Shown piece after piece: positions 9,496-20,372 of a DNA stretch of 56,705 nt. Origin of the DNA: an uncultured archaeon (GTDB lineage Archaea; Asgardarchaeota; Thorarchaeia; Thorarchaeales; Thorarchaeaceae); NCBI GenBank assembly GCA_964631415.1, contig CAZVZC010000008.1, positions 1 through 56,705 on the forward strand, read 5' to 3'. Made by a program: the position numbers and the translations under genes. The notes beneath the pieces are model-generated. The model did not search any database. It was not told the origin of the DNA and saw only the letters and a program-made list of their open reading frames with translations. Position 1 is the first letter of the stretch. Each line of letters begins with the position of its first letter.

Positions 9496-9696
9496 CTATA
9501 GCATTGAAGCAGTCCCATCGATAATGAGGCTTTCGAATCGTAGCAGCCTACTTGTGACTAGCGCAAAAAGACTCGATTGACGCTGGCATCCCAAAGGCTG
9601 GCAGCCGTCGGGAGCAGATTGGTGGCCACGTCCACCAAAGATAAGAGAAGCCGGAGTTCCCGAAGACCCGCCCCCCGCGAACCTGGAGGATGCCAG

Positions 9697-10881
9697 TTGT
9701 CCGATCTGACTGCATTGTATAATCCCAAGGCGCTCCTCGAACTGCGAGGAGTTGATCAGCTTGATAGAATGAGAGCTGAACCGAACCCCTTTTGGAATAG
9801 AGCAAGGCTCGAGATTGCATGGGCCCTTCCAGTCATGTGTGGTTTGGTGGAGAGAGAGTCCATCTCACTGCAGCCCATGAGATTGGCAACAGGAGATGAG
9901 CTTAGACTATATCACGACTCGTCTTACGTTGAAACATTAGAGTTGTTTGGAAACATGGGCTACGCTTTCTCATCGCGTTTCGGACTTGACACCGATGACT
10001 GTCCGGTTTTCCCGGATGTTGACAAGTACGCAAGCTACCCCGTCGGTGCAACGGTTGATGCAGTGATGAGCGTGGCTAGCGGCAAGTTCCGTAATGCAAT
10101 GTCGTTCTTTGGTGGGTTCCATCACGCGATGGCAAGCATCGCTGCGGGTTTCTGCTACTACAATGATTGCGTGATCGCTCTGAAGAAGTATAGGCAGACG
10201 TATCCTAGCAAGAAGGTCCTGTACTTGGATACTGATGCCCATCATAGTGACGGTACGCAACAAGCCTTCTACTCAGACCGAAATGTATTGAAAATATCAA
10301 CACATGAGTATAGCATGGGCTTCTTCCCGGGGACGGGATCAGTGCAGGAGATTGGTGAGGGTGAAGGAAGGGGCTACTCAGTGAACATACCCCTGCCCCC
10401 TCTGACCGATGATGTGCAGTTCTGGAAGGCCTTCGAAGAGGTGATTGTACCGATTTGGGAGGCCTATAAGCCCGACTTCGTCTTCTGGGAGGTCGGCGGA
10501 GATGCGCATATGAAGGACCCCCTCACAGACCTAATGCTCACACTCGAAACATACCAGCGGCTGTCAATGGCAGTACAGCAGCTCGTCCATGCAGGCGGCA
10601 GCAGGCTAGTGGTCGTCGGAGGTGGCGGGTATGACCCGGTGGCAACAGCGAAGATCTGGACCCTAGTACTGGCGGATTTAGCAGGTGTTCCACTCCCGCC
10701 TGCCCTTCCGACCGAGTGGATCAAGCTATGCCGGAGGTATAATCATGAAGTGGAACGCCAAGGGTGGACTGACTCACCTGTACGCACAGACCCCGAACAC
10801 CGTCCGAATGTGCAAAGGGCAGTGGATGAAACCATCTCCTCAGTAAAGAAACTGGTTTTTCCCTTCTTTGGACTGAAATGA
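9697..10881 (+). CDS. AcuC/histone deacetylase-family Zn deacetylase
   Basis: GGFHHA, GFCYYND, DTDAHH, FFPGTG, GGGGY; TTG at 9697 after GGAGG. Confidence 0.9.
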   Translation: MSDLTALYNPKALLELRGVDQLDRMRAEPNPFWNRARLEIAWALPVMCGLVERESISLQPMRLATGDELRLYHDSSYVETLELFGNMGYAFSSRFGLDTDDCPVFPDVDKYASYPVGATVDAVMSVASGKFRNAMSFFGGFHHAMASIAAGFCYYNDCVIALKKYRQTYPSKKVLYLDTDAHHSDGTQQAFYSDRNVLKISTHEYSMGFFPGTGSVQEIGEGEGRGYSVNIPLPPLTDDVQFWKAFEEVIVPIWEAYKPDFVFWEVGGDAHMKDPLTDLMLTLETYQRLSMAVQQLVHAGGSRLVVVGGGGYDPVATAKIWTLVLADLAGVPLPPALPTEWIKLCRRYNHEVERQGWTDSPVRTDPEHRPNVQRAVDETISSVKKLVFPFFGLK

Positions 10882-10925
10882 TCCAATGGCCTACAATGTG
10901 TTTGGTTTGGGAATTCGTCGGCAGA

Positions 10926-11564
10926 TTAGCCACCATGGCGGTTTCTCTTGACCCCTAAGAAGCATCTATGCCTTGTGTCATCTATGTACATCTCTAGGAC
11001 GTCGAACGAACTGAAGACCGTACGTATCTCTTCCTCAGTGAAGTAGTGGTGTAGCAGGCCACTTTCAGGGCCTGCATGAGGAAGGTATGTATCCTTCTCA
11101 ATCAGCTCCAGCGCCCAGTCCTCTCTAGAGCGATACTCGGTCATTGTCGATACAGTTATGAAAAGCAGACCTTCGGGCTTTAGAACTCTGTCAATCTCTC
11201 GGACCGTCTTCAGGGTGTCCTTCATCAGATTGTGGTGAATCACTTGTGTGGAAATGATAGCATCGAAGAATGTATCGGCATACGGGAAACGATTCTCCAT
11301 CCTGTGCAGTCTTAGGTCTGCTTCAAGACCTTCCTCGTGCAACCATTGATGAGCTATAGACAACGCCCGAGGTGATGCATCGAAGCCGTACACCTCGAAT
11401 CCGCGCTTCGATAAGAATACGAGATGTCGTCCGGTCCCACAACCCAAGTCCAAGACTCTGCGAACGCCTTTGTCACAGAACAGATCGGCAATCCTAGCCA
11501 TGTCCTTATGGGGTTCTGTGAAGAACTTGCCCCTTTCACCGAATATCTGTTCCCAATCTGGCAT
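10926..11564 (-). CDS. Class I SAM-dependent methyltransferase
   Basis: VLDLGCGTGRH, FD, RVLKPEG. Confidence 0.9.
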   Translation of the reverse strand: MPDWEQIFGERGKFFTEPHKDMARIADLFCDKGVRRVLDLGCGTGRHLVFLSKRGFEVYGFDASPRALSIAHQWLHEEGLEADLRLHRMENRFPYADTFFDAIISTQVIHHNLMKDTLKTVREIDRVLKPEGLLFITVSTMTEYRSREDWALELIEKDTYLPHAGPESGLLHHYFTEEEIRTVFSSFDVLEMYIDDTRHRCFLGVKRNRHGG

Positions 11565-11671
11565 CGGGGTACAAGATATCTGTGAGCGTGATATGGATTT
11601 CTATCCCTCAGATTCGTACTAGATAAATGGGGGATTGACAATAGTCAGGGTTCACTTAGGAGAAGCAGTCC

Positions 11672-13387
11672 ATGTCAAGATTCCGCCCAAGGTATGTCAT
11701 ACTGATACTCAGTGTGGTTCTGATCCTAACCGGCACCGCCACAGCATCTGTGATCCAAGGAGGGCTTGGCACTGTCGCTGTGACTGAGGTCGACTTCCGG
11801 GCAGCTGATGGCTCCAACATACACAGTACCCTCCAGAGGCCTACCTACGCCACGAATTCGAATCCGCTTCCAGCCGTGGTTGTCATTCATGGTGTGATCC
11901 AGAGCAAAGAATGGCTGATGGCCTTTGGTATCGAGTTGGCCCGACGAGGATTTGTCGTACTGACAATCGATGCGAACGGGCATGGCAACTCAGATCCGGG
12001 CACGGGTGCAGGGACTGCTGCACTAGAGTTTCTGACCACACTCGACTATGTCAATGCGTCCTCCATCGGTATCATCGGTCATAGCATGGGAGGAGGAATT
12101 GCTTGGACTGCCATTCAGAACTCACCAGTCACTGTGAGTGCGCTGGTCATAGTAGGCAGCCCTGTATCTACTACTGCTAACACAACGTATCCTAGAAACA
12201 TGCTTGTTGCAGTAGGCGAGTTTGATTCACTCGTGCGTTACTCCACAAACCGGACTAGTCTGCAGAAGTCATTCGGTCACGCAGACATCGAAGCAGGAAC
12301 CATCTATGGTGACTTCAGAAACGGGACTGCTCGCGAACTCTTCATTGCCCGTACAAACCATCTGTTCGAAACAGTGAACCCACAGATTGTGAGTGAGAGT
12401 GTGGAGTGGATGAAGGACAGTCTGAAGGGAGGAGCAGAGGACACACATTGGCTTCAGAAGACAGACCTTATCTATCCATATTGGCTGGCAGGGGGATTCC
12501 TAAGCCTCCTTGGCGCACTTCTGTCGGTCTTTCCGTTGCTGGCAATCATCATCGAGCTCCCCGTCTTCACTAGTCTGAAACATACGCCAACTGTCGAGAA
12601 CCCGGCAAGTAGCAAGTCGTATGTCATTCGGGGACTTGTTTACGGTGCGATTGGTCTGGGGACGTTCTTCCCTCTCTTAGCAGTTGGCGCGTTAGCGGAG
12701 GGATTGATTCACCCGCTGCAGAGCTACGGTCTTGCGGTGAGCATGTGGATTCTGGGAAGTGCACTGATTGCCGCTCTAGTTCTTTGGCGGTTCCCTCGAT
12801 CTGGCGTCAGCCTCAAATCCCTCATCAGCATAGACGACGGTTCTGAAGTACCATTCCGAAAGCTCGTGAAGACTCTTCTGTTGGCCCTGTCTGTGACCGT
12901 CTGGCTCTATGCATGGACCCTCTTGGTTGACCTAGGTTTCGCACTCGACATCCGGTGTTTTCTCCCCGGGTTTAACGACCTCATGCCAGCTCGTGCTCTA
13001 GTAGCACCGCTGTATTTTGTAGTGTTCTTCGTCTACTTCCTGATTGATGGGTTCTGGTTGATGGGAGTGTTAAGGACTGGGGCGAAGCAGACTTGGGGTC
13101 GTACACAGTTGAACTGGACTCTCAGAGCTATGTTCATCAAGTGCATCCCGTACTTTGCCATCGTGGCACTTGAGTACGGCATCGGCCTGATCACGGGCAT
13201 GCCAATCATCAGCGGGTACGCAGGTTTCTCTCTCCTGTTCTTCTATGCCTTCACCCCGTATTTCGCAGTCAGCGCTGTCGTCACGGTGTGGGGCCACCAC
13301 CTCACAGACCGTTACTACCTTGGTGCTGCAATCAACGCCATGCTATTCGCGTGGGTTCTAGCGGCAGCTCTTCCCATTCCAGCTTAG
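11672..13387 (+). CDS. Membrane-anchored alpha/beta hydrolase with multi-TM C-terminus
   Basis: N-terminal signal/TM, VVIHG, GHSMGG, many C-terminal TM helices. Confidence 0.85.
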   Translation: MSRFRPRYVILILSVVLILTGTATASVIQGGLGTVAVTEVDFRAADGSNIHSTLQRPTYATNSNPLPAVVVIHGVIQSKEWLMAFGIELARRGFVVLTIDANGHGNSDPGTGAGTAALEFLTTLDYVNASSIGIIGHSMGGGIAWTAIQNSPVTVSALVIVGSPVSTTANTTYPRNMLVAVGEFDSLVRYSTNRTSLQKSFGHADIEAGTIYGDFRNGTARELFIARTNHLFETVNPQIVSESVEWMKDSLKGGAEDTHWLQKTDLIYPYWLAGGFLSLLGALLSVFPLLAIIIELPVFTSLKHTPTVENPASSKSYVIRGLVYGAIGLGTFFPLLAVGALAEGLIHPLQSYGLAVSMWILGSALIAALVLWRFPRSGVSLKSLISIDDGSEVPFRKLVKTLLLALSVTVWLYAWTLLVDLGFALDIRCFLPGFNDLMPARALVAPLYFVVFFVYFLIDGFWLMGVLRTGAKQTWGRTQLNWTLRAMFIKCIPYFAIVALEYGIGLITGMPIISGYAGFSLLFFYAFTPYFAVSAVVTVWGHHLTDRYYLGAAINAMLFAWVLAAALPIPA

Positions 13388-13422: not shown

Positions 13423-14358
13423 TCAAGCGGCCGGCCGGGTCTTCTGATCCGCAGCTGGCCCTTGCACTTCTGGATGTGTGAACAGCCACTCTAAGAGCCC
13501 GGTTCCCCTCTGACCCAACCCCTGGCACTCGTGGACTGCCATCTCTTCGTAGAGCTCAGTCGTACCGCCCGGAAACGGACGAGAGAATCTGACAAAAGCA
13601 GTAGGTGATATCATTGCTGAGCGCAAGGTGTAGCATGAGCCATCTGCTCCGTGAACGTGTGTAATGGCTTGGATGGGGATACGTGCTTCTCCACTCGCAA
13701 ACTCAGTTTCAAGCTCAACCTCCGAGATTGGGATGTGCCCCTTGTCTGAAGATATGCCACCTGATGCATGCGCCTGACTTTTCACCATGTCACGTCTGAG
13801 CCCTATCGAGAATGTTTCGAACTGTGCATGAAGCGCAAACCAGCCCTCGATGTGCCAATCACGTGCACCCCAGCTCTTGTCGCGCTCGCCAAGGCCTTTC
13901 AGCTTGATCAGACCGCCCTCTCCAAGCTCGACCTTGCCAGTGACACGACCAGACTGCTCGAAGTGACCCGCCCAAGACGTACCACTTCCCGTGCCGAAGT
14001 TGTATGCCGGGTAGCGGGCCTTCCACTTCAGGTCCGCAGTGAGGCCGGCTCCAGCAAAACTGATCCTCCACTCACGAAGAGGTTTGATGAGCTCGAAGCT
14101 CAGGTGGCCATCAGAGAGAGACTCGGCGAGGCCCTTGGGGACTGCGCCAGAAGGCTCGACATAATAGACTTCACGTTTGTCATCGTGGAAGAGAACAAAG
14201 ACGAACTCTCGCTTGGCGGCGTTAGGTAGAAGGCCGATGGTTGAGAAACCGGACACCTTCGACTCCGAGTCGACAAAGTTGAAGTAGTAGCTCTCGCGCC
14301 AGTCTGGACGCTCAGACGGCGAATGGGCAGATTCATCAGTTTCGCCAGGTCTACTCAT
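13423..14358 (-). CDS. AttH/CrtC/tocopherol-cyclase-like beta-barrel protein (DUF7064/7065-like)
   Basis: WRESYYFNF, HFEQSGRVTG, GERDKSWGARDW motifs. Confidence 0.65.
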   Translation of the reverse strand: MSRPGETDESAHSPSERPDWRESYYFNFVDSESKVSGFSTIGLLPNAAKREFVFVLFHDDKREVYYVEPSGAVPKGLAESLSDGHLSFELIKPLREWRISFAGAGLTADLKWKARYPAYNFGTGSGTSWAGHFEQSGRVTGKVELGEGGLIKLKGLGERDKSWGARDWHIEGWFALHAQFETFSIGLRRDMVKSQAHASGGISSDKGHIPISEVELETEFASGEARIPIQAITHVHGADGSCYTLRSAMISPTAFVRFSRPFPGGTTELYEEMAVHECQGLGQRGTGLLEWLFTHPEVQGPAADQKTRPAA

Positions 14359-14387: not shown

Positions 14388-15554
14388 CTACTCTGGGAGT
14401 AGGTAGAGCGTTGGGTCCTTTTCCTGCTCCTCCGGCTCACGAAACATCCTGAAGAATGCCGGGTCTGCGTCGACCTCCATAAACCTCGGGAGATACTCGT
14501 CTATCACAGAGGGTGAGAGGCCCCAGTCTATCTTCTTGGTTATGCCCACCTGATTCGTGAACCTTGCGAATCCACGCCAGTATGCGGTGGCTCCGGCAAT
14601 GAGAAGCTTCTTCCGATCCCATTCTGCGAACTTCATGTAGAGCTCTGCTTGAGCAGCATCTGCCGCTTCCGCATATGCAGATAGCTCGTCAAGACCAATC
14701 GGGACCACCTTGCCGGTGCGTTTCCTGTAGACGCCCATCTTAGTCACGAGCTTGGAGTAGTCACCAGGCTCCACGGTCATTGTGCCCACATCGTTGAAAG
14801 TCACGCTTGCGCCCCTGAGTGTCATGGCGACACCCAAAGTGGAAGATGGAAGCTTGGCATCGGTCTTGGACCAAGGAAGCCAGAGATCACCGGTCCCATC
14901 GTACAGGTTCGTGTATTCTGAAACGACTAGAATCTCGCCGCCGTCCAGTGGATAGGGTCCATGGTCGATTATCTTCGCGCGCGCCTCACATTCTTCCATG
15001 AACGCGTATAGGTCAACAGACGCTATTGCGCGTCTGGCCTTTGCGGCCTTTTCCTCGGTGACGGGCTGGAGGTGATCCACCAGCCAACTGATGGTCTTCT
15101 TGTCAAAGGCCAAGTTCGTGCCACCTGACGCCGCTACCGTTGGCTTCCCTGTGTTGAAGTAGTTGGTCGCAAGCCTGTACCAATTATCAAGCATGAAGAG
15201 CCATTGTGTGCGTTTCTCTTTGGGCTCCTTGGATACGTCGCCCCCATACTTGTTGAAGATGGCACCCATCCTAGCTAGAGAGTAATAGAGCCAAAGGTAG
15301 GTTGTGGAAAGAGCTTGAACCTCTGAGAGCAGAGTCTTACTCTTCTTTGCCAGCTCCTCCGGTGTTGTCTTCTGCCAGACCTGCTTCATGACATCATACA
15401 GACAGGCGTACGTCTGATAGAAGCCAACGCATATGTAAGCATTCACGGGGAAGAGCTTAGACTCTAGAAGCCCCCTCTCCATCAGGATGTTTGTGAAGAC
15501 CGAGGAGAGGTGATTTATCTGTTTGTTTGCGTCCCGAATCTGCAACAAAAACAC
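14388..15554 (-). CDS. Hypothetical protein, 388 aa (candidate substrate-binding subunit of the split dikinase)
   Basis: Long clean ORF with no family I recognise; divergent from the PEP-utilising modules. Confidence 0.75.
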   Translation of the reverse strand: MFLLQIRDANKQINHLSSVFTNILMERGLLESKLFPVNAYICVGFYQTYACLYDVMKQVWQKTTPEELAKKSKTLLSEVQALSTTYLWLYYSLARMGAIFNKYGGDVSKEPKEKRTQWLFMLDNWYRLATNYFNTGKPTVAASGGTNLAFDKKTISWLVDHLQPVTEEKAAKARRAIASVDLYAFMEECEARAKIIDHGPYPLDGGEILVVSEYTNLYDGTGDLWLPWSKTDAKLPSSTLGVAMTLRGASVTFNDVGTMTVEPGDYSKLVTKMGVYRKRTGKVVPIGLDELSAYAEAADAAQAELYMKFAEWDRKKLLIAGATAYWRGFARFTNQVGITKKIDWGLSPSVIDEYLPRFMEVDADPAFFRMFREPEEQEKDPTLYLLPE

Positions 15555-15766
15555 AGCTCCACGCGACAGTCTTGAAAACGGATTGGAGTGGCTCCGGCCC
15601 TGTGGCAGATATTAAGTGTTTCAGACGCGTGACACATCTGTATCGGCATCTTTCGATAAACCATCGGTGATTTGGCATCCTAGCGATACACGGTAAGCTA
15701 AGATGCACGAGTCTTTTAAGACCTGACCCGGCCTAGCGCCGAGAAAGCGTCTGGTGGCCTGCTGAG

Positions 15767-16117
15767 TTGAGAAGAGTCGGAAGAGGGCTCATCACCCTGA
15801 GACTCAGTGCGGAAGGAGAACTGCGCGTCGTGACATCGATTCAGGACGTGATTAAGCTATGGAAGGAGGGACCAGACGGCAAGATTGTCCTCGTTGAGGA
15901 CGCAGGCACAACGACGTTGGCGCCAGTGCTCCCGAAACTGGCAGGAGTCGTCTGCACATCAGGGGCTCTCGGCTCTCACTTAGCCATTGTCACCCGAGAG
16001 CTTCAGATTCCTGCGTTGATGGGCACCAAACTGGAAACAACTGAGAGCCTTGACCGCAAAAGAGTGACTATCCAACCAGATGAAGGGGCCGGTGGCGTGC
16101 TCCTGCTATCGGAGTGA
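15767..16117 (+). CDS. Stand-alone PEP-utilising enzyme mobile (phospho-His swivel) domain
   Basis: GVVCTSGALGSHLAIVTRELQIPA matches the (T/S)SH(A)AIVARExGIPA signature. Confidence 0.88.
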   Translation: MRRVGRGLITLRLSAEGELRVVTSIQDVIKLWKEGPDGKIVLVEDAGTTTLAPVLPKLAGVVCTSGALGSHLAIVTRELQIPALMGTKLETTESLDRKRVTIQPDEGAGGVLLLSE

Positions 16118-16170
16118 TATGTGCTGTGGTGCGCCGAAGAGAGAGGGGTTCCTCAGGAGGGAAGTCAGAC

Positions 16171-17196
16171 TTGGAAACAGCACATCCAGATCACGGTCTG
16201 GCTGATTCTCCGCCTCCCCGCCGGTTTCATTCGGTCACGTTCTTGGAACACATAGGTCAAGATGAGTATGAGAAGCTCGGTGGCAAGGCAGTGAACCTTG
16301 GGCGGCTCCATCATGCTGGTATCGACGTCCCGAACGGGTTCACGATCTCCTGTGACTGCTTTACAGAGTTCTTGGAAAAAGTGCCTCGATCGCGAGAGGT
16401 GCTGCAACGTCTAGAGGCCTCGACCGACATCGAGGAGATTTTGGATGCCGCGACAGAGCTTGAGCGGCTTGGGGGACAGTGCAAGATGGCCAAGAGGATT
16501 AGAGAGGAGATCACTGCTGCCTTCTTGCAGCTCGACGAGAGAGGAGGCAGCCACGACACGAGGTATGCAGTCCGATCCTCAGCCAACATAGAAGATGGAA
16601 GGCAGGTTTCGTTCGCAGGACAGGCGGAGAGCTTCCTATGCGTGAATGGAGTTGAGAACATCATCGACGCTGTGAAGAAGACATGGCAGTCAGCCATTTC
16701 CTCACGCTCTGTCCTGTATCTTCACAGCAGGGGTATCAGAATCAATAGAGTAGCAATGGGTGTCATTGTACAGGAGATGATTACGGCAGAGGTTTCTGGT
16801 GTCATGTTTACGGCCAATACAGTGACGAGTGACCCCAGCCAGATGATTGTGGAATCCACTTGGGGGCTAGGAGAGCCCTTGGTTTCAGGAAAGATAGTAC
16901 CTGACACCTATGTGCTCAGTAAGAATCCTATGGGAGTGATACAGCGAACACTTGGTTCAAAGGCTGTCACAGCTGTGCCTAGTAGAACTGGCGGAAGAGA
17001 ACGCGTACTGCTCGAGGCAACCCCACAGAGCAAGCAGGAAGCTTTCGCACTGGGCAATCGGGAGATACTCAGGATTGCGCGCAAGGGCTTGGAGATTGAG
17101 CAGATTCTAGGCTGCCCTCAGGACATAGAGTGGTGTATTGATGGCCCTCGCCTTGTTGTGGTTCAAGCACGGCCGATAACTACTCTTCAACCCTGA
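16171..17196 (+). CDS. Stand-alone PEP synthase/PPDK N-terminal ATP-grasp domain
   Basis: GGKAVNLG, AVRSSANIED..SFAGQ, SGVMFT, WGLGE, QDIEW, QARPITT then stop; TTG at 16171 after GGAGG. Confidence 0.9.
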   Translation: METAHPDHGLADSPPPRRFHSVTFLEHIGQDEYEKLGGKAVNLGRLHHAGIDVPNGFTISCDCFTEFLEKVPRSREVLQRLEASTDIEEILDAATELERLGGQCKMAKRIREEITAAFLQLDERGGSHDTRYAVRSSANIEDGRQVSFAGQAESFLCVNGVENIIDAVKKTWQSAISSRSVLYLHSRGIRINRVAMGVIVQEMITAEVSGVMFTANTVTSDPSQMIVESTWGLGEPLVSGKIVPDTYVLSKNPMGVIQRTLGSKAVTAVPSRTGGRERVLLEATPQSKQEAFALGNREILRIARKGLEIEQILGCPQDIEWCIDGPRLVVVQARPITTLQP

Positions 17197-17291: not shown

Positions 17292-17585
17292 CTAGGGCTG
17301 GCGCATTTGATACAGAGACCGCTCGGCTTTGACTGTGATTGCCTGTTCAGGGCACACCTCTGCGCATCTCATGCATCCAGTGCACATACAGGGCCAAACA
17401 GGCGTCACTAACCATCGCTCCGGGTTGTAGGGGTCTTTATGCTCCTCAAGCGTTGGGTGCATCAGAAACACTGCCGGGTCACAGACATTCATGCACTTCC
17501 TGCACTCTCTGGGGTCCATCTTTGCATTAGGACCACACTTCTTGTAGTCAATCTTGATCTTTGTCTTGTCCATCCAGTTCACCAC
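17292..17585 (-). CDS. 4Fe-4S dicluster ferredoxin
   Basis: CRKCMNVC and CTGCMRCAEVCP. Confidence 0.85.
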   Translation of the reverse strand: MVNWMDKTKIKIDYKKCGPNAKMDPRECRKCMNVCDPAVFLMHPTLEEHKDPYNPERWLVTPVWPCMCTGCMRCAEVCPEQAITVKAERSLYQMRQP

Positions 17586-17587
17586 CC

Positions 17588-18457
17588 CTAGAACTTGCCA
17601 GCCTGTCCGGGCACTGACTCCCGGGGCACGAGAGTGAGAGCATCATAGTTGCATGCGTGTCTGCATACACCACATCCAAAGCATTTGTCGTGGTTGACTA
17701 TTACCTTCTTGATTGATGGAAGATATCGGAGAGCTCCGAACTGACACATCTTAACACAGTTCTTGCAGCCTTGGCACTTGTCGCGGTCAAGCGTGACGAC
17801 GTATTCGCCTTTGTAGACGACCCTGAGGCCGAAGTCGTTCCTGAGGCGCAAGCCCCCACACTCCGGGCTCTCGCATGAACAGATTGCATTGATATAGGGC
17901 ACTGGCTGGAACCAGACAGACGCCACGTATCCTCTCTTATTCTGCTCCTCCAGGGCTGCAATGGCCTCCTCCCTGTCCAGCTGCCACTTCTGATCGACCG
18001 GGATGTATCTTGTGAGCTTCGGTATTATCTGACTCAGACAGCCGAAGTTGATACACACGGCGTCCTTCACCCCTCTCTGCATCCACCTGCACACACAGTA
18101 GTTCTTTATGATAGGCTCAGCCGCTAAGTTGCCGATAATATGCTGAGCGTCCTCGAGGGGGATTACCTGTCCAAAGTGACCATCGGCTCTTACGGGGTTC
18201 CGTCCAGGTTTCTCACTGTGTATCTGCCGCTCGGCAGCCCATCGAAGAAAACGTCCCATAAGCGGCATCTGCATCTTGTACCCGAGACCAATGGAACTGA
18301 ACCCCATGATCTTGCGAATGAACAGGGTTTCCATGTTCTTCCACTGTTCTTCGAGGTACGCCTGCATGTTGTACTCGTCAGCGAGCTCATAGGAGTAGTT
18401 CCTGGCGTTCATGTACCACTTGCCGCCTGCTCCGTGCTTCATACACCAATCACACAA
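17588..18457 (-). CDS. 4Fe-4S binding protein with Cys-rich N-terminal domain
   Basis: MCDWC, CVCR, ICSC..C, CQGCKNCVKMC, CFGCGVCRHAC. Confidence 0.85.
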   Translation of the reverse strand: MCDWCMKHGAGGKWYMNARNYSYELADEYNMQAYLEEQWKNMETLFIRKIMGFSSIGLGYKMQMPLMGRFLRWAAERQIHSEKPGRNPVRADGHFGQVIPLEDAQHIIGNLAAEPIIKNYCVCRWMQRGVKDAVCINFGCLSQIIPKLTRYIPVDQKWQLDREEAIAALEEQNKRGYVASVWFQPVPYINAICSCESPECGGLRLRNDFGLRVVYKGEYVVTLDRDKCQGCKNCVKMCQFGALRYLPSIKKVIVNHDKCFGCGVCRHACNYDALTLVPRESVPGQAGKF

Positions 18458-18705: not shown

Positions 18706-19377
18706 ATGCAGCTCATCTTTGACACGGCAGTCATCGCTAACCTGGCAACGGCTGCGTTCTCAGCAGTGCTCTCCCTGTACCTACTCGCACTCTGGTTCAG
18801 ACAGAAGAACCATCTCTATACAGATTTGCCCCTGATGTTCGGTATCACGTTCATGGCTCAGGCATTCAACACCCTGATTCGGACACTGCCACTCATTGGT
18901 GTGGTCGAGATGTCGTTGAACCTCTTTCGTCTACGAACACTCGTGATCATGGGAACAGCCTTCCCATTACTGGTTGTTGCTTTGCACATCTGGCTACCCA
19001 GAGCACGCAGGTATCATCCCAAAATAGCTGGGGTACTCGCGGTCTACTGGATTCTTGTTGCATTGTTCGGACCCTCAGAAGCGGTGATCATGCTGCTATG
19101 TATCCCGGTCGTCCTAGTACTTAGTGTAACAATGATTGTCACCTTCATGATCACTTGGAAGACGAACAGGCTGAAAGAGGTCAGGAGCGACCTGATGGTC
19201 CTCTCATTCGTGCTGGGCTTCGTGAGCCAGTTGGTGGCGAGCCAAGTGATTCTCAACAACGTGCTCATCACACTCGGGACTGTCTTCTCGACCCTTGGAC
19301 TGACCAATCCATGGTTCAGACGAAGGCACATTCCTCTTGCCATGTCGCCCGAATCAGTTGAGCCTCCAGTGGTCTAG
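18706..19377 (+). CDS. Polytopic (about 7 TM) membrane protein of unknown function
   Basis: Consecutive hydrophobic segments; SD GAGG before the ATG. Confidence 0.75.
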   Translation: MQLIFDTAVIANLATAAFSAVLSLYLLALWFRQKNHLYTDLPLMFGITFMAQAFNTLIRTLPLIGVVEMSLNLFRLRTLVIMGTAFPLLVVALHIWLPRARRYHPKIAGVLAVYWILVALFGPSEAVIMLLCIPVVLVLSVTMIVTFMITWKTNRLKEVRSDLMVLSFVLGFVSQLVASQVILNNVLITLGTVFSTLGLTNPWFRRRHIPLAMSPESVEPPVV

Positions 19378-19403: not shown

Positions 19404-20372
19404 GTGATGAGTGCGGTCGAAACTGTTGTGAGCAGTGTTGTCACTGTAAAGAGCTCGAAGCATTTCTGGTCACGGGCTGGACTACTGCGACTAGCAGGGC
19501 TCATGTTAGCCATAGCCATCGCGTGGCGGGTAGTCGACATCTTTGTACTGAGATTGGGAGAAACTTGGGTGAACATATTGCCGTCCAAGATCTTCCCGTT
19601 CCTCATCATGGCAGCGCTCTTCTGGAAGTACCGACCTGGAGAGATTGGTACAGTCCTTGGGCTGAACAGACGACAGTTCAGACTGCAGCTAGTACTTGGG
19701 CTCTTGGTCGGCTGCTCGATGTATCTCCTGCTTGATGTCATCCCCACGGTGATTTACGGGACATTCTTTGATGCATCGTATCCTCTGAACCTAAACATCC
19801 TCTTCATTGACATTCTCTGGTACCAATTCCTGTTCTTCTTCACAAACGCGCTTCTAGAGGAGTCTCTATTTCGCGGTCTTATTCAGAATGGCCTAAGGTC
19901 GATTCTCACTCCCAATAGAGCGATACTCCTGTCAGCGATTGTGTTCGGCCTCTGGCACGTCGCTTGGCCAATCGTGAAAGGGCTATATGGAGAGTTCTCG
20001 CCGTCCGAAGCTGCGGCCATGCTCTTGTTCGCGGGAGTGGTGGGGCTGTTCTTTGGTACGTACTACGAGAAGTTCAGCTCAAGAGCGACACTCACAGGGC
20101 CAATCATTGCCCACACTCTGATTAACTTCCTCAATGAATGCATCAAAGTTGGTCCAGACCCCAGCGTGCAGGGCCCTGATATCACCTTCAAGAGCCCAGT
20201 GCTTCTTGCAATCACCTTCTTGTTCCTCGTAGTGACGCTGGGAGTGTTTACAAAGCTTGCATGGTCGCGCAGAACAGAAGATGTGGAGTCAATTTGGGCA
20301 CAGCTCAGAGAGAGAGAGAGTGAGATTCTGTGTCAGTTCAGACTGCTGCTGCACATTGGGTCCCCGCAATGA
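19404..20372 (+). CDS. CPBP (CAAX/Abi) intramembrane metalloprotease
   Basis: EESLFRG, FGLWH, AHTLIN. Confidence 0.9.
   Translation: MMSAVETVVSSVVTVKSSKHFWSRAGLLRLAGLMLAIAIAWRVVDIFVLRLGETWVNILPSKIFPFLIMAALFWKYRPGEIGTVLGLNRRQFRLQLVLGLLVGCSMYLLLDVIPTVIYGTFFDASYPLNLNILFIDILWYQFLFFFTNALLEESLFRGLIQNGLRSILTPNRAILLSAIVFGLWHVAWPIVKGLYGEFSPSEAAAMLLFAGVVGLFFGTYYEKFSSRATLTGPIIAHTLINFLNECIKVGPDPSVQGPDITFKSPVLLAITFLFLVVTLGVFTKLAWSRRTEDVESIWAQLRERESEILCQFRLLLHIGSPQ

What the first reader, a model, noticed from the sequence alone, without database searches (positions are those of the whole stretch)
14388..17196. PEP-synthase-like dikinase split into separate genes, with an unknown candidate substrate subunit
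Seen: a 116-aa stand-alone phospho-His swivel domain (SHLAIVTRE) and an ATP-grasp domain ending right after QARPITT. No PEP/pyruvate-binding barrel is present in the window. Divergently transcribed is a 388-aa protein with no recognisable family. Established: phenylphosphate synthase, rifampin phosphotransferase and PigC reuse these two modules with a different substrate-binding domain to phosphorylate or activate non-pyruvate substrates. Inference: a three-subunit ATP-to-AMP dikinase in which the 388-aa protein supplies a novel active site for an unknown substrate.
Basis: partly seen in the sequence, partly recalled or inferred. Interest (0 to 1): 0.72.

Follow-up and report, generated by a model that had tools for sequence, protein, structure and literature searches.

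The report
Split dikinase paired with phosphate lyase
An Asgard archaeon keeps the ATP-binding and phosphate-carrying parts of a PEP-synthase-type kinase as two small genes, next to a conserved protein of unknown fold and a relative of a phosphate-eliminating lyase; together they most likely use ATP to phosphorylate and then remove a hydroxyl group on an unknown, probably greasy, molecule.

Summary
A 116-aa stand-alone swivel domain (PF00391, His71) and a stand-alone PPDK_N ATP-grasp lie divergent from a 388-aa protein ("X") that matches no Pfam or NCBIfam family. These are not fragments of a decayed ppsA.

- **Distribution:** the split layout recurs in over 100 loci across Asgard and TACK archaea, with relatives in bacteria.
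- **Swivel link:** X is tied to the swivel domain by adjacency and by natural swivel-X fusions (Gordonia, Citricoccus, metagenomes). A complex prediction gave ipSAE 0.77 against 0.00 for the best control.
- **X fold:** the model is confident (pLDDT 89) but matches no solved structure, including rifampin phosphotransferase.
- **Missed fourth partner:** the gene directly downstream of X (13423-14358) is a DUF7065/7064 protein. By sequence (E 5.5e-9) and fold (Foldseek E 3e-14, TM 0.72) it resembles the newly solved 25-phosphosteroid lyase. It follows X in 75 of 76 testable loci.
- **Fe-S pair:** two Fe-S proteins often travel with the cluster.

Best reading: an ATP-driven phosphorylate-then-eliminate (dehydratase-type) system built on a fully split dikinase with a new acceptor subunit. 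The substrate is unknown. No biochemistry exists.

This scan has already reported the same system on other genomes, with the same reading. I reached it independently here.

The parts
13423..14358 (-). DUF7065/DUF7064 double beta-barrel protein (311 aa), a relative of 25-phosphosteroid lyase and the proposed phosphate-eliminating lyase
   Evidence: Pfam PF23213 E 9.6e-15 and PF23212 E 0.0016, the latter below its cut-off. The family profile hits PDB 9FZN/9G2I/9G4C at E 5.5e-9, sharing the YYFN and RDxSWGxR motifs. The AF2 model (pLDDT 90.7) has 9g4c_B as its top Foldseek hit: E 3e-14, TMq 0.72. It lies directly downstream of X in 75 of 76 loci.
14388..15554 (-). X: a 388-aa conserved protein of unknown fold, the proposed acceptor-substrate subunit that receives phosphate from the swivel His
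   Evidence: No Pfam or NCBIfam family. There are 208 close homologues at 62-95% identity and 226 clusters at the 50% level. The AF2 model has pLDDT 89 and pTM 0.88, with no PDB or Atlas fold match and no PDB sequence match. Natural fusions to the swivel domain exist. The predicted complex with the swivel domain scored 0.77 against 0.00 for the controls. R95, R192 and Y201 are invariant across the family.
15555..15766 (.). 212-bp divergent intergenic region between X and the swivel gene, presumed to hold a shared promoter
   Evidence: Read directly. The head-to-head arrangement is conserved in Thor-, Hod-, Bathy- and Methanomethylicia loci. No promoter analysis was done.
15767..16117 (+). Stand-alone phospho-histidine swivel domain (116 aa, His71)
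   Evidence: PF00391 E 1e-12. The His and the motif G-S-H-L-A-I-x-x-R-E-x-x-I-P are invariant or nearly so in 27 homologues, including the fused forms. It is the only PF00391 match in the genome.
16114..17196 (+). Stand-alone PPDK_N ATP-grasp (nucleotide-binding) subunit, 360 aa, or 317 aa if it starts at TTG 16243
   Evidence: PF01326 E 1.1e-80. The best solved relatives are PEP synthase 8A8E (E 1.5e-58) and rifampin phosphotransferase 5HV1/5FBS (about 3e-47). It overlaps the swivel stop codon by 4 nt. It is the only PF01326 match in the genome.
17292..17585 (-). 97-aa 4Fe-4S ferredoxin-like protein, frequently linked to the cluster; role unknown
   Evidence: Fer4 families. It is always paired with the 289-aa protein in the Thor, Loki, Bathy and f13 loci that carry the pair.
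17588..18457 (-). 289-aa protein with a Cys-rich N-terminal region of no known family and a C-terminal 2x[4Fe-4S] domain, frequently linked to the cluster; role unknown
   Evidence: Fer4 hits cover residues 221-275 only, and the N-terminal 215 aa match no family. Atlas neighbours are uncharacterised Fe-S proteins of about 280 aa. It is present in 30 of 49 fully flanked loci.

Best explanation
The locus encodes a multi-protein, ATP-driven phosphorylate-then-eliminate system.

1. The PPDK_N ATP-grasp protein binds ATP and (pyro)phosphorylates His71 of the free 116-aa swivel protein, as in PEP synthase, phenylphosphate synthase and rifampin phosphotransferase. This follows from homology.
2. The phospho-swivel docks onto X. 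X is a new-fold protein that holds the acceptor molecule in a site lined by conserved arginines (R27, R95, R192). The phosphoryl group moves to a hydroxyl of the substrate. This is inferred from fusions, synteny and a complex prediction.
3. The DUF7065/7064 protein, a relative of 25-phosphosteroid lyase, then eliminates the phosphate and leaves a C=C bond. This is inferred from homology and near-obligate gene linkage.

The net reaction would be ATP-dependent dehydration of an unreactive, probably tertiary or otherwise hindered, alcohol on a hydrophobic, possibly isoprenoid- or polyketide-like, compound. A dikinase, which spends two phosphoanhydride bonds (ATP to AMP + Pi), would make formation of an energy-rich alkyl phosphate irreversible. 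The ordinary ATP-to-ADP kinase 25-HSK runs at equilibrium (Keq 0.34, PMC8449060). The two Fe-S proteins may act before or after this step; their role is unknown.

My odds: X is the swivel's acceptor-site partner, about 0.75. The lyase-like protein eliminates the phosphate, about 0.55.
For: - Domain assignments.
- Synteny: the swivel gene lies beside X in 40 of 49 fully flanked species-representative loci. PPDK_N is present in 27 of those 49, always together with the swivel gene. The lyase-like gene lies directly downstream of X in 75 of 76 loci, with a median gap of about 13 nt. The same holds in 20 Asgard genome regions, including paralogous copies.
- Cognate pairing: L027 has two tandem swivel-X pairs sharing one PPDK_N and one lyase gene. 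Gordonia has three swivel-X pairs.
- Rosetta-stone fusions: an N-terminal swivel domain is fused to X in four distant cluster representatives, two of which include proteins of cultured Actinobacteria.
- Bacterial parallel: Burkholderia ambifaria has the DUF7065, swivel, X and PPDK_N+swivel genes together inside a PKS cluster.
- Complex prediction for X + swivel: median ipSAE 0.77, best of three controls 0.00. This mark was reached by 58 of 80 solved complexes and 2 of 110 mismatched pairs. The runs agree in at least 86% of contacts and the partner's pLDDT is at least 88. The interface includes swivel residues 65-80 (with His71) and X residues 25-37 and 171-192.
- Conserved residues: family-wide invariant R192 and near-invariant R27 lie in that interface.
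- Lyase homology: profile against PDB 25-PSL E 5.5e-9; Foldseek E 3e-14, TM 0.72 over the full length, ahead of kievitone hydratase, AttH and the Diels-Alderases at about 1e-9.
- Precedents in the literature: two-component small-molecule dikinases (PMC12167813) and the kinase-plus-lyase ATP-dependent dehydration (PMC7411048, PMC8449060).
Against: - There is no biochemical or expression evidence.
- Identity to 25-PSL is only about 15-16%. Other enzymes with this fold are hydratases and pericyclases, so the barrel protein could make or rearrange the substrate rather than eliminate phosphate.
- I could not check the phosphate-binding residues of 25-PSL, because its paper is not in the held library.
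- Five Methanomethylicia and Bathyarchaeia genomes with swivel-X-lyase contain PPDK_N only inside ORFs of 810-914 aa, the size of full-length PEP synthase or PPDK. In those lineages the phosphate donor is unclear, although the MAGs are small.
- Eight of 49 fully flanked loci have X and the lyase gene without a nearby swivel gene.
- The known partner of 25-PSL is an APH-type kinase, not a dikinase.
- The complex model used my own alignments, so its calibration holds only roughly.
Confidence: 0.55

Rival explanations
1. Hydrate-then-phosphorylate, or kinase only. The barrel protein acts like kievitone hydratase or CrtC and makes, or merely binds or delivers, a tertiary alcohol. The split dikinase (PPDK_N + swivel + X) then phosphorylates it, and the phosphoester is the end product: for activation, trapping or inactivation, as with rifampin phosphotransferase or HpeHI.
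For: The fold family includes kievitone hydratase 7A0T and AttH 2ICH at Foldseek E about 1e-9. Known small-molecule dikinases end with a phosphoester (PMC12167813). Identity to 25-PSL is low, at 15-16%.
Against: The protein is closer to 25-PSL than to any hydratase. 25-PSL is the only sequence-level PDB hit (E 5.5e-9), and it gives the best Foldseek E-value by five orders of magnitude. The conserved gene order is X then barrel, often with overlapping or nearly abutting genes. That order is compatible with either reading.
Confidence: 0.22
2. Phosphorelay or regulation. X is itself the target or sensor of the phospho-His swivel, in a signalling or regulatory relay like PTS-type regulation or VadK of M. 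tuberculosis, and not an enzyme subunit that holds a small-molecule acceptor.
For: VadK is a PPDK-derived ATP-grasp + swivel protein without a C-terminal domain. It autophosphorylates on His and has a regulatory phenotype (PMC13400623). The bacterial clusters carry two swivel domains in series, which resembles a relay. The complex prediction shows binding only, not catalysis.
Against: X is 60-70% identical across different archaeal phyla and has invariant Arg and Tyr residues typical of an active site. It is near-obligately linked to an enzyme-family partner. It sits in biosynthetic and catabolic contexts: PKS, P450 and SQHop-cyclase-like genes. There is no DNA-binding or other output domain.
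Confidence: 0.1
3. Decayed or frameshifted ppsA. The swivel and ATP-grasp ORFs are pseudogene fragments, and X is an unrelated neighbour.
For: The own genome shows no intact PEP synthase or PPDK, so a broken one might be suspected.
Against: The gene order (swivel before ATP-grasp) is the reverse of ppsA. Both ORFs are intact, with conserved ends and lengths (116-130 aa and 323-350 aa), in dozens of genomes from several phyla. The catalytic His is invariant. No PF02896 remnant exists. The genome is only 85% complete, and same-genus genomes contain PF00391 matches inside ORFs of about 900-994 aa.
Confidence: 0.01

Closest known systems
Two-component small-molecule dikinases HpeHI, CreHI and phenylphosphate synthase PpsAB, and single-chain rifampin phosphotransferase RPH (PMC12167813)
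   Same: They share a separate ATP-grasp subunit homologous to the PEP-synthase and RPH N-terminal domains. They share a phospho-His swivel domain with a Ser before the catalytic His, as in PpsA and CreH. They lack the PEP/pyruvate TIM barrel. The presumed ping-pong transfer runs from ATP to His to a hydroxyl of a non-pyruvate acceptor.
   Different: Here the swivel domain is a free 116-aa protein, or is fused to the N-terminus of the acceptor protein in bacteria. In those enzymes it is fused to the C-terminus of a RIF-binding-type domain. The acceptor protein X has a predicted fold that retrieves neither RPH nor anything else from the PDB. The system is linked to a phosphate-lyase homologue. 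It is archaeal.
25-hydroxysteroid kinase (25-HSK) plus 25-phosphosteroid lyase (25-PSL) of Sterolibacterium denitrificans, the ATP-dependent dehydration of a tertiary alcohol (PMC7411048, PMC8449060; PDB 9FZN, 9G2I, 9G4C)
   Same: The gene downstream of X is a sequence and fold relative of 25-PSL. The proposed logic is the same: phosphorylate an unreactive alcohol, then eliminate the phosphate to give an alkene.
   Different: 25-HSK is a single-subunit APH-type kinase that converts ATP to ADP through a ternary complex. It is fully reversible, and its gene is not near the lyase gene (PMC8449060). Here the kinase would be a split His-relay dikinase encoded next to the lyase. The substrate is unknown and unlikely to be a sterol in these anaerobic archaea. 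Identity to 25-PSL is only about 15-16%.
PEP synthase and pyruvate phosphate dikinase
   Same: The ATP-grasp subunit is most similar to archaeal PEP synthase 8A8E (E 1.5e-58), and the swivel profile also hits PEP synthases best.
   Different: There is no PEP/pyruvate-binding domain in the window or the genome. The domains are separate genes in reversed order.
VadK (Rv1127c) of Mycobacterium tuberculosis, a PPDK-derived ATP-grasp + swivel kinase without a C-terminal domain (PMC13400623)
   Same: It is another natural case in which the dikinase charging modules work without the pyruvate domain. The bacterial relatives of this system carry a similar PPDK_N+swivel protein of 555-590 aa next to swivel-X.
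   Different: In VadK the two domains are fused, its acceptor is unknown, and its phenotype is regulatory. No X or lyase partner is described for it.

Membership tests
PEP synthase / PPDK (canonical dikinases) | N-terminal ATP-grasp nucleotide-binding domain (PF01326) | tested here: met
   PF01326 E 1.1e-80; PDB 8A8E E 1.5e-58
PEP synthase / PPDK (canonical dikinases) | Central phospho-His swivel domain with a catalytic His (PF00391) | tested here: met
   PF00391 E 1e-12; His71 is invariant in 27 homologues
PEP synthase / PPDK (canonical dikinases) | C-terminal PEP/pyruvate-binding TIM barrel (PF02896) on the same polypeptide | tested here: not met
   No PF02896 match in the whole genome, which is 85% complete. 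The domains are on separate genes in reversed order.
RPH / two-component small-molecule dikinases (HpeHI, CreHI, PpsAB) | ATP-grasp component homologous to the RPH ATP-grasp domain | tested here: met
   5HV1/5FBS E about 3e-47; the 387-aa chain 9GOJ E 1.2e-44; NCBIfam RIF_Ptrans_rph 244.7 bits over residues 41-360, far below the whole-protein cut-off of 999
RPH / two-component small-molecule dikinases (HpeHI, CreHI, PpsAB) | Swivel domain fused to the C-terminus of the acceptor-binding domain | tested here: not met
   The swivel domain is a separate 116-aa gene. Where it is fused, it lies at the N-terminus of X.
RPH / two-component small-molecule dikinases (HpeHI, CreHI, PpsAB) | Acceptor domain with the RIF-binding-domain fold (Rph_4th and related) | tested here: inconclusive
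   The X model (pLDDT 89) gave no Foldseek PDB hit better than E 0.29 and a best VIA-align Z of 5.1. RPH did not appear in either list. There is no Pfam hit. A missing fold match does not prove a different fold.
25-HSK / 25-PSL ATP-dependent dehydratase | Lyase of the 25-PSL (DUF7065/7064, double beta-barrel) family | tested here: met
   Profile against 9FZN E 5.5e-9 with shared YYFN and RDxSWGxR motifs; Foldseek top hit 9g4c_B at E 3e-14, TMq 0.72
25-HSK / 25-PSL ATP-dependent dehydratase | APH-type kinase that converts ATP to ADP and phosphorylates the alcohol | tested here: not met
   No APH-type match among the ten proteins scanned between 10926 and 20372. The linked kinase modules are of the dikinase type.
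25-HSK / 25-PSL ATP-dependent dehydratase | Phosphate elimination from a tertiary alkyl phosphate to give an alkene | not testable with these tools
   This needs an enzyme assay. The phosphate-site residues of 25-PSL could not be compared because the structure paper is not in the held library.

The most novel reading that the evidence does not exclude
X is the founding member of a new fold class of acceptor-binding domains for phospho-His swivel carriers. Together with a free swivel protein, a stand-alone ATP-grasp protein and a 25-PSL-like lyase, it forms a previously undescribed modular ATP-driven dehydratase. That dehydratase is widespread in Asgard and TACK archaea and is recruited into bacterial polyketide and catabolic clusters. 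In archaea it would act on an endogenous isoprenoid-type alcohol, that is, a missing step of lipid or cofactor metabolism, and the Fe-S pair would supply a coupled redox step.
Probability: 0.3. Interest if true: 0.85.

Novelty: new variant of a known kind. Interest (0 to 1): 0.68.

Why it matters
If this is correct, swivel-domain dikinases are more modular than known. The phosphate carrier can be a free protein that shuttles between an ATP-charging subunit and an acceptor subunit of a fold never seen before. One charging subunit may also serve several carrier-acceptor pairs.

It would also generalise the recently discovered kinase-plus-lyase way of removing unreactive hydroxyl groups without oxygen. 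That chemistry would extend from one steroid-degrading bacterium to many anaerobic archaea, including the Asgard relatives of eukaryotes, and to bacterial natural-product clusters. Several hundred "hypothetical" proteins (208 close homologues, 226 clusters at the 50% level) would gain a function.

Cultured carriers (Gordonia otitidis, Citricoccus zhacaiensis, Burkholderia ambifaria) make the idea directly testable.

Tried and rejected
- **Fold searches with the X model.** Foldseek against the PDB (best E 0.29), VIA-align against 48,161 chains (best Z 5.1, short helical fragments) and the ESM Atlas (best TM 0.32) gave nothing usable. A PDB sequence search with the broad family profile gave only chance hits.
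- **C-terminal extensions.** Pfam scans of the extensions of long X homologues found no domains.
- **Fused lyase-dikinase proteins.** Two "longer" searches, one with the window's lyase-like protein and one with its family alignment, found none. The tool itself calls this weak evidence, so I could not reproduce the fusion reported by an earlier scan note.
- **Fe-S protein.** The Atlas look-up returned only uncharacterised ferredoxin-like clusters, and its N-terminal 215 aa match no Pfam family.
- **Literature.** The paper describing 25-PSL is not in the held library. No paper describing a swivel + X + lyase module was found.
- **Rv3168 and Rv3169.** Rv3168 is an APH-fold kinase (PMC3691515) and Rv3169 names the DUF7065 family. 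That the two are neighbours is inferred from their locus tags only and was not checked.
- **Decayed ppsA.** Considered and rejected; see the rival explanations.
Full report
**Observation**

- X is at 14388-15554 (-), 388 aa, and matches no Pfam or NCBIfam family.
- The swivel gene is at 15767-16117 (+). Its 116-aa product is a PEP-utilizers mobile domain (PF00391, E 1e-12) with the motif GSHLAIVTRE.
- The ATP-grasp gene is at 16114-17196 (+). It encodes a PPDK_N domain (PF01326, E 1e-80) that ends just after QARPITT.

The swivel gene comes first and overlaps the ATP-grasp gene by 4 nt. This order is the reverse of PEP synthase, so a simple frameshift cannot explain the split. TTG 16243 is an alternative start for the ATP-grasp gene.

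The window belongs to a Thorarchaeota MAG of 2.16 Mb that is 85% complete. These are the only PF00391 and PF01326 matches in that genome, and PF02896 (the PEP/pyruvate barrel) was not found. Same-genus genomes contain PF00391 matches inside ORFs of about 900-994 aa, so the lack of a canonical enzyme here may reflect incompleteness.

**X is a real, strongly conserved gene**

A word-indexed search found 208 homologues, and the 120 listed are 62-95% identical over the full length. They come from Thor-, Hod- and Methanomethylicia (Verstraetearchaeota) archaea, and all are labelled hypothetical.

A profile search of 1.84 billion cluster representatives found 226 clusters at E<=1e-3 and 124 at E<=1e-10.

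A scan of species-representative genomes returned 80 loci. They come from Thor-, Hermod-, Promethe/Loki-, Jord- and Freyarchaeia, and from Bathyarchaeia, Methanomethylicia and Brockarchaeota. Hodarchaeota appear.

Within the Asgard phylum X is patchy: 52 of 201 genomes, in 5 of 27 families, sometimes with two or three paralogues.

**Linkage**

I scored the neighbourhoods with phmmer, using the window's own proteins as queries.
- In 75 of 76 loci with at least 1 kb of downstream flank, the gene directly after X on the same strand is a homologue of window ORF 13423-14358. The median gap is about 13 nt.
- Of 49 loci with at least 5 kb on both sides, 41 carry a stand-alone swivel gene, and in 40 of them it lies right beside an X gene.
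- 27 of those 49 also carry a stand-alone PPDK_N, always together with the swivel gene.
- 30 of those 49 carry the 289-aa Fe-S protein. Its 97-aa partner was found beside it in the loci where I looked at gene order.

The same pattern holds for the paralogous copies. One Asgard locus (L027) has PPDK_N, then swivel-X, swivel-X, then the barrel gene. Each X therefore has its own swivel, while the ATP-grasp gene is shared. A distant homologue (E 1e-47) in another lineage has swivel, X and the barrel gene in one direction, with PPDK_N nearby.

**Fusions and bacterial relatives**

Four distant cluster representatives carry an N-terminal PF00391 domain fused to X. Members of two of these clusters are from cultured Actinobacteria, Gordonia otitidis (575 aa) and Citricoccus zhacaiensis (794 aa), where they are annotated only as "PEP-utilizing enzyme".
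- Gordonia has three swivel-X pairs followed by a DUF7065-like gene, with a PPDK_N+swivel protein nearby.
- Burkholderia ambifaria has the DUF7065, swivel, X (726 aa) and PPDK_N+swivel genes together inside a polyketide synthase cluster.
- Citricoccus has a PPDK_N+swivel protein, P450s and APH-type kinases around its fusion.

The catalytic His and the surrounding motif are invariant in all 27 swivel sequences aligned, including the fused forms.

**Structure of X and docking**

The AlphaFold model of X is confident (pLDDT 89, pTM 0.88). It is a helical N-terminal half, a beta-sheet insert and further helices.

It has no convincing match in the PDB by Foldseek (best E 0.29), by an exhaustive VIA-align pass (best Z 5.1 on short helical pieces), or in the ESM Atlas (best TM 0.32). 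Rifampin phosphotransferase, whose acceptor domain is the template for HpeH and PpsA, did not appear.

A controlled complex prediction of X with the swivel protein passed.
- The median ipSAE was 0.77, and the best of three controls was 0.00.
- The tool's mark was reached by 58 of 80 solved complexes and 2 of 110 mismatched pairs.
- The runs agree in at least 86% of contacts, and the partner's pLDDT is at least 88.
- The calibration holds only roughly, because my own alignments were used.

The interface contains swivel residues 65-80, including His71, and X residues 25-37, 171-192, 258-267 and 299-310. In a 44-sequence alignment reaching about 20% identity, the only invariant X residues are R95, R192 and Y201, with R27, G199 and P200 nearly invariant. 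R27 and R192 lie in the predicted interface. This fits a phosphoryl-transfer site but does not prove one.

**The fourth partner**

ORF 13423-14358 (-) is a DUF7065/DUF7064 protein.

A profile of 23 orthologues hits the PDB chains named 25-phosphosteroid lyase (9FZN, 9G2I, 9G4C) at E 5.5e-9, with shared YYFN and RDxSWGxR motifs.

Its model (pLDDT 90.7) has these three entries as its top Foldseek hits, at E 3e-14 and TM 0.72 over the full length. Diels-Alderases, kievitone hydratase and AttH follow at about 1e-9.

In Sterolibacterium, 25-PSL eliminates phosphate from a tertiary steroid-side-chain phosphoester that is made by 25-HSK. Together the two enzymes form an ATP-dependent dehydratase (PMC7411048, PMC8449060, PMC11061730). 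25-HSK is an APH-type kinase that converts ATP to ADP and runs at equilibrium (Keq 0.34), because the tertiary phosphoester is as energy-rich as ATP (PMC8449060). A dikinase spends two anhydride bonds and would make such a phosphorylation irreversible. This thermodynamic rationale is my inference.

**Mechanism proposed**

ATP passes phosphate through the PPDK_N subunit to His71 of the free swivel protein. The swivel protein carries it to a substrate hydroxyl held by X. The lyase-like protein then eliminates the phosphate to give an alkene.
- Shown: domain identities, gene linkage, fusions, predicted binding, and the homology of the lyase-like protein.
- Inferred: every catalytic step, the ATP-to-AMP stoichiometry, and the direction of the barrel enzyme's reaction.
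- Unknown: the substrate and the role of the Fe-S pair.

The barrel fold family acts on hydrophobic, often isoprenoid, substrates. Relatives of the cluster sit next to genes for a squalene-hopene-cyclase-like protein, P450s, SnoaL, SDR and enoyl-CoA hydratase enzymes, and PKS. Both observations point to a greasy alcohol.

**Caveats**

Five Methanomethylicia and Bathyarchaeia genomes with swivel-X-lyase contain PPDK_N only inside ORFs of 810-914 aa, the size of full-length PEP synthase or PPDK. In those lineages either the canonical enzyme charges the free swivel protein in trans, or another donor is used, or the MAGs are incomplete.

Eight of 49 fully flanked loci have X and the lyase gene without a nearby swivel gene. 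At least some of those genomes carry the swivel and PPDK_N genes at a second locus.

**Comparison with what is known**

The nearest described systems are the two-component small-molecule dikinases HpeHI, CreHI and PpsAB, and single-chain RPH (PMC12167813). This locus shares their ATP-grasp and swivel modules. It fails their architecture test, because the swivel domain is not fused C-terminally to a RIF-binding-type domain. It replaces that acceptor domain with a protein that has no detectable structural relative.

With 25-HSK and 25-PSL it shares only the lyase family and the proposed logic. VadK of M. tuberculosis (PMC13400623) is another PPDK-derived module without the pyruvate domain.

I found no paper describing X, free swivel proteins of this kind, or a dikinase-lyase pairing. 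I therefore rate it a new variant of a known kind.

**Earlier notes of this scan**

After reaching the lyase link myself, I found that the scan has already reported the same system on other genomes with the same reading. These notes are not independent evidence. I rechecked their main claims here, except the reported kinase-lyase fusion, which my two searches did not reproduce.

**Verdict**

The system is uncharacterised, widespread and testable in cultured bacteria. Interest is 0.68.

Noticed in passing
window 9577-13387: Next to the cluster lie a histone-deacetylase-family gene (9577-10881, PF00850 E 1e-81), a SAM methyltransferase (10926-11564) and a 571-aa alpha/beta hydrolase (11672-13387). 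This trio keeps the same order beside the lyase gene in many Thor- and Hodarchaeota loci, but not in TACK or most Loki loci. It may be a lineage-specific extension of the pathway or only conserved synteny.
   Followed up: partly
window 17292-18457; L017, L020, L021, L023, L029, L055-L058, L105-L111: A 289-aa protein (Cys-rich N-terminal 215 aa with no family, plus a C-terminal 2x[4Fe-4S] domain) and a ~90-aa ferredoxin-like protein always occur as a pair. They accompany the cluster in several phyla, though at different positions. This suggests an unassigned redox step.
   Followed up: partly
X orthologues: Thorarchaeota X is 60-69% identical to the Bathyarchaeia, Methanomethylicia and Brockarchaeota copies, but only 43-48% identical to the Loki/Promethe-, Jord- and Freyarchaeia copies. 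This looks like transfer of the cluster between Asgard and TACK lineages. No tree was built.
   Followed up: no
L027 (G129:C240) and L112 (Gordonia otitidis): There are tandem duplications of the swivel-X pair: two pairs in an Asgard genome and three in Gordonia. Each set sits beside a single ATP-grasp-containing gene and one barrel gene, which implies that each swivel is matched to its own X.
   Followed up: partly
L113 (Burkholderia ambifaria chromosome, CP113276.2 240096-258276): The DUF7065, swivel, X (726 aa, with an unassigned C-terminal extension of about 350 aa) and PPDK_N+swivel genes are embedded in a PKS, KAS III and ACP gene cluster whose product I did not identify.
   Followed up: no
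G201-G205 (Methanomethylicia and Bathyarchaeia genomes holding L035, L047, L054, L043, L055): These genomes have swivel-X-lyase but contain PPDK_N only inside ORFs of 810-914 aa, the size of full-length PEP synthase or PPDK. It is unclear what phosphorylates the free swivel protein there.
   Followed up: partly
window 18706-19377: A 223-aa ORF with no family lies next to a CPBP/Rce1-like intramembrane protease (19404-20372). Homologues of both recur near the cluster in several Thorarchaeota loci.
   Followed up: no
L009/L010 (metagenome contigs): In a distant version of the cluster, a 447-aa protein with a squalene-hopene-cyclase C-terminal domain sits immediately upstream of swivel-X-barrel. 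A full-length RPH-type protein (PPDK_N + Rph_4th + swivel) lies a few kb away.
   Followed up: no
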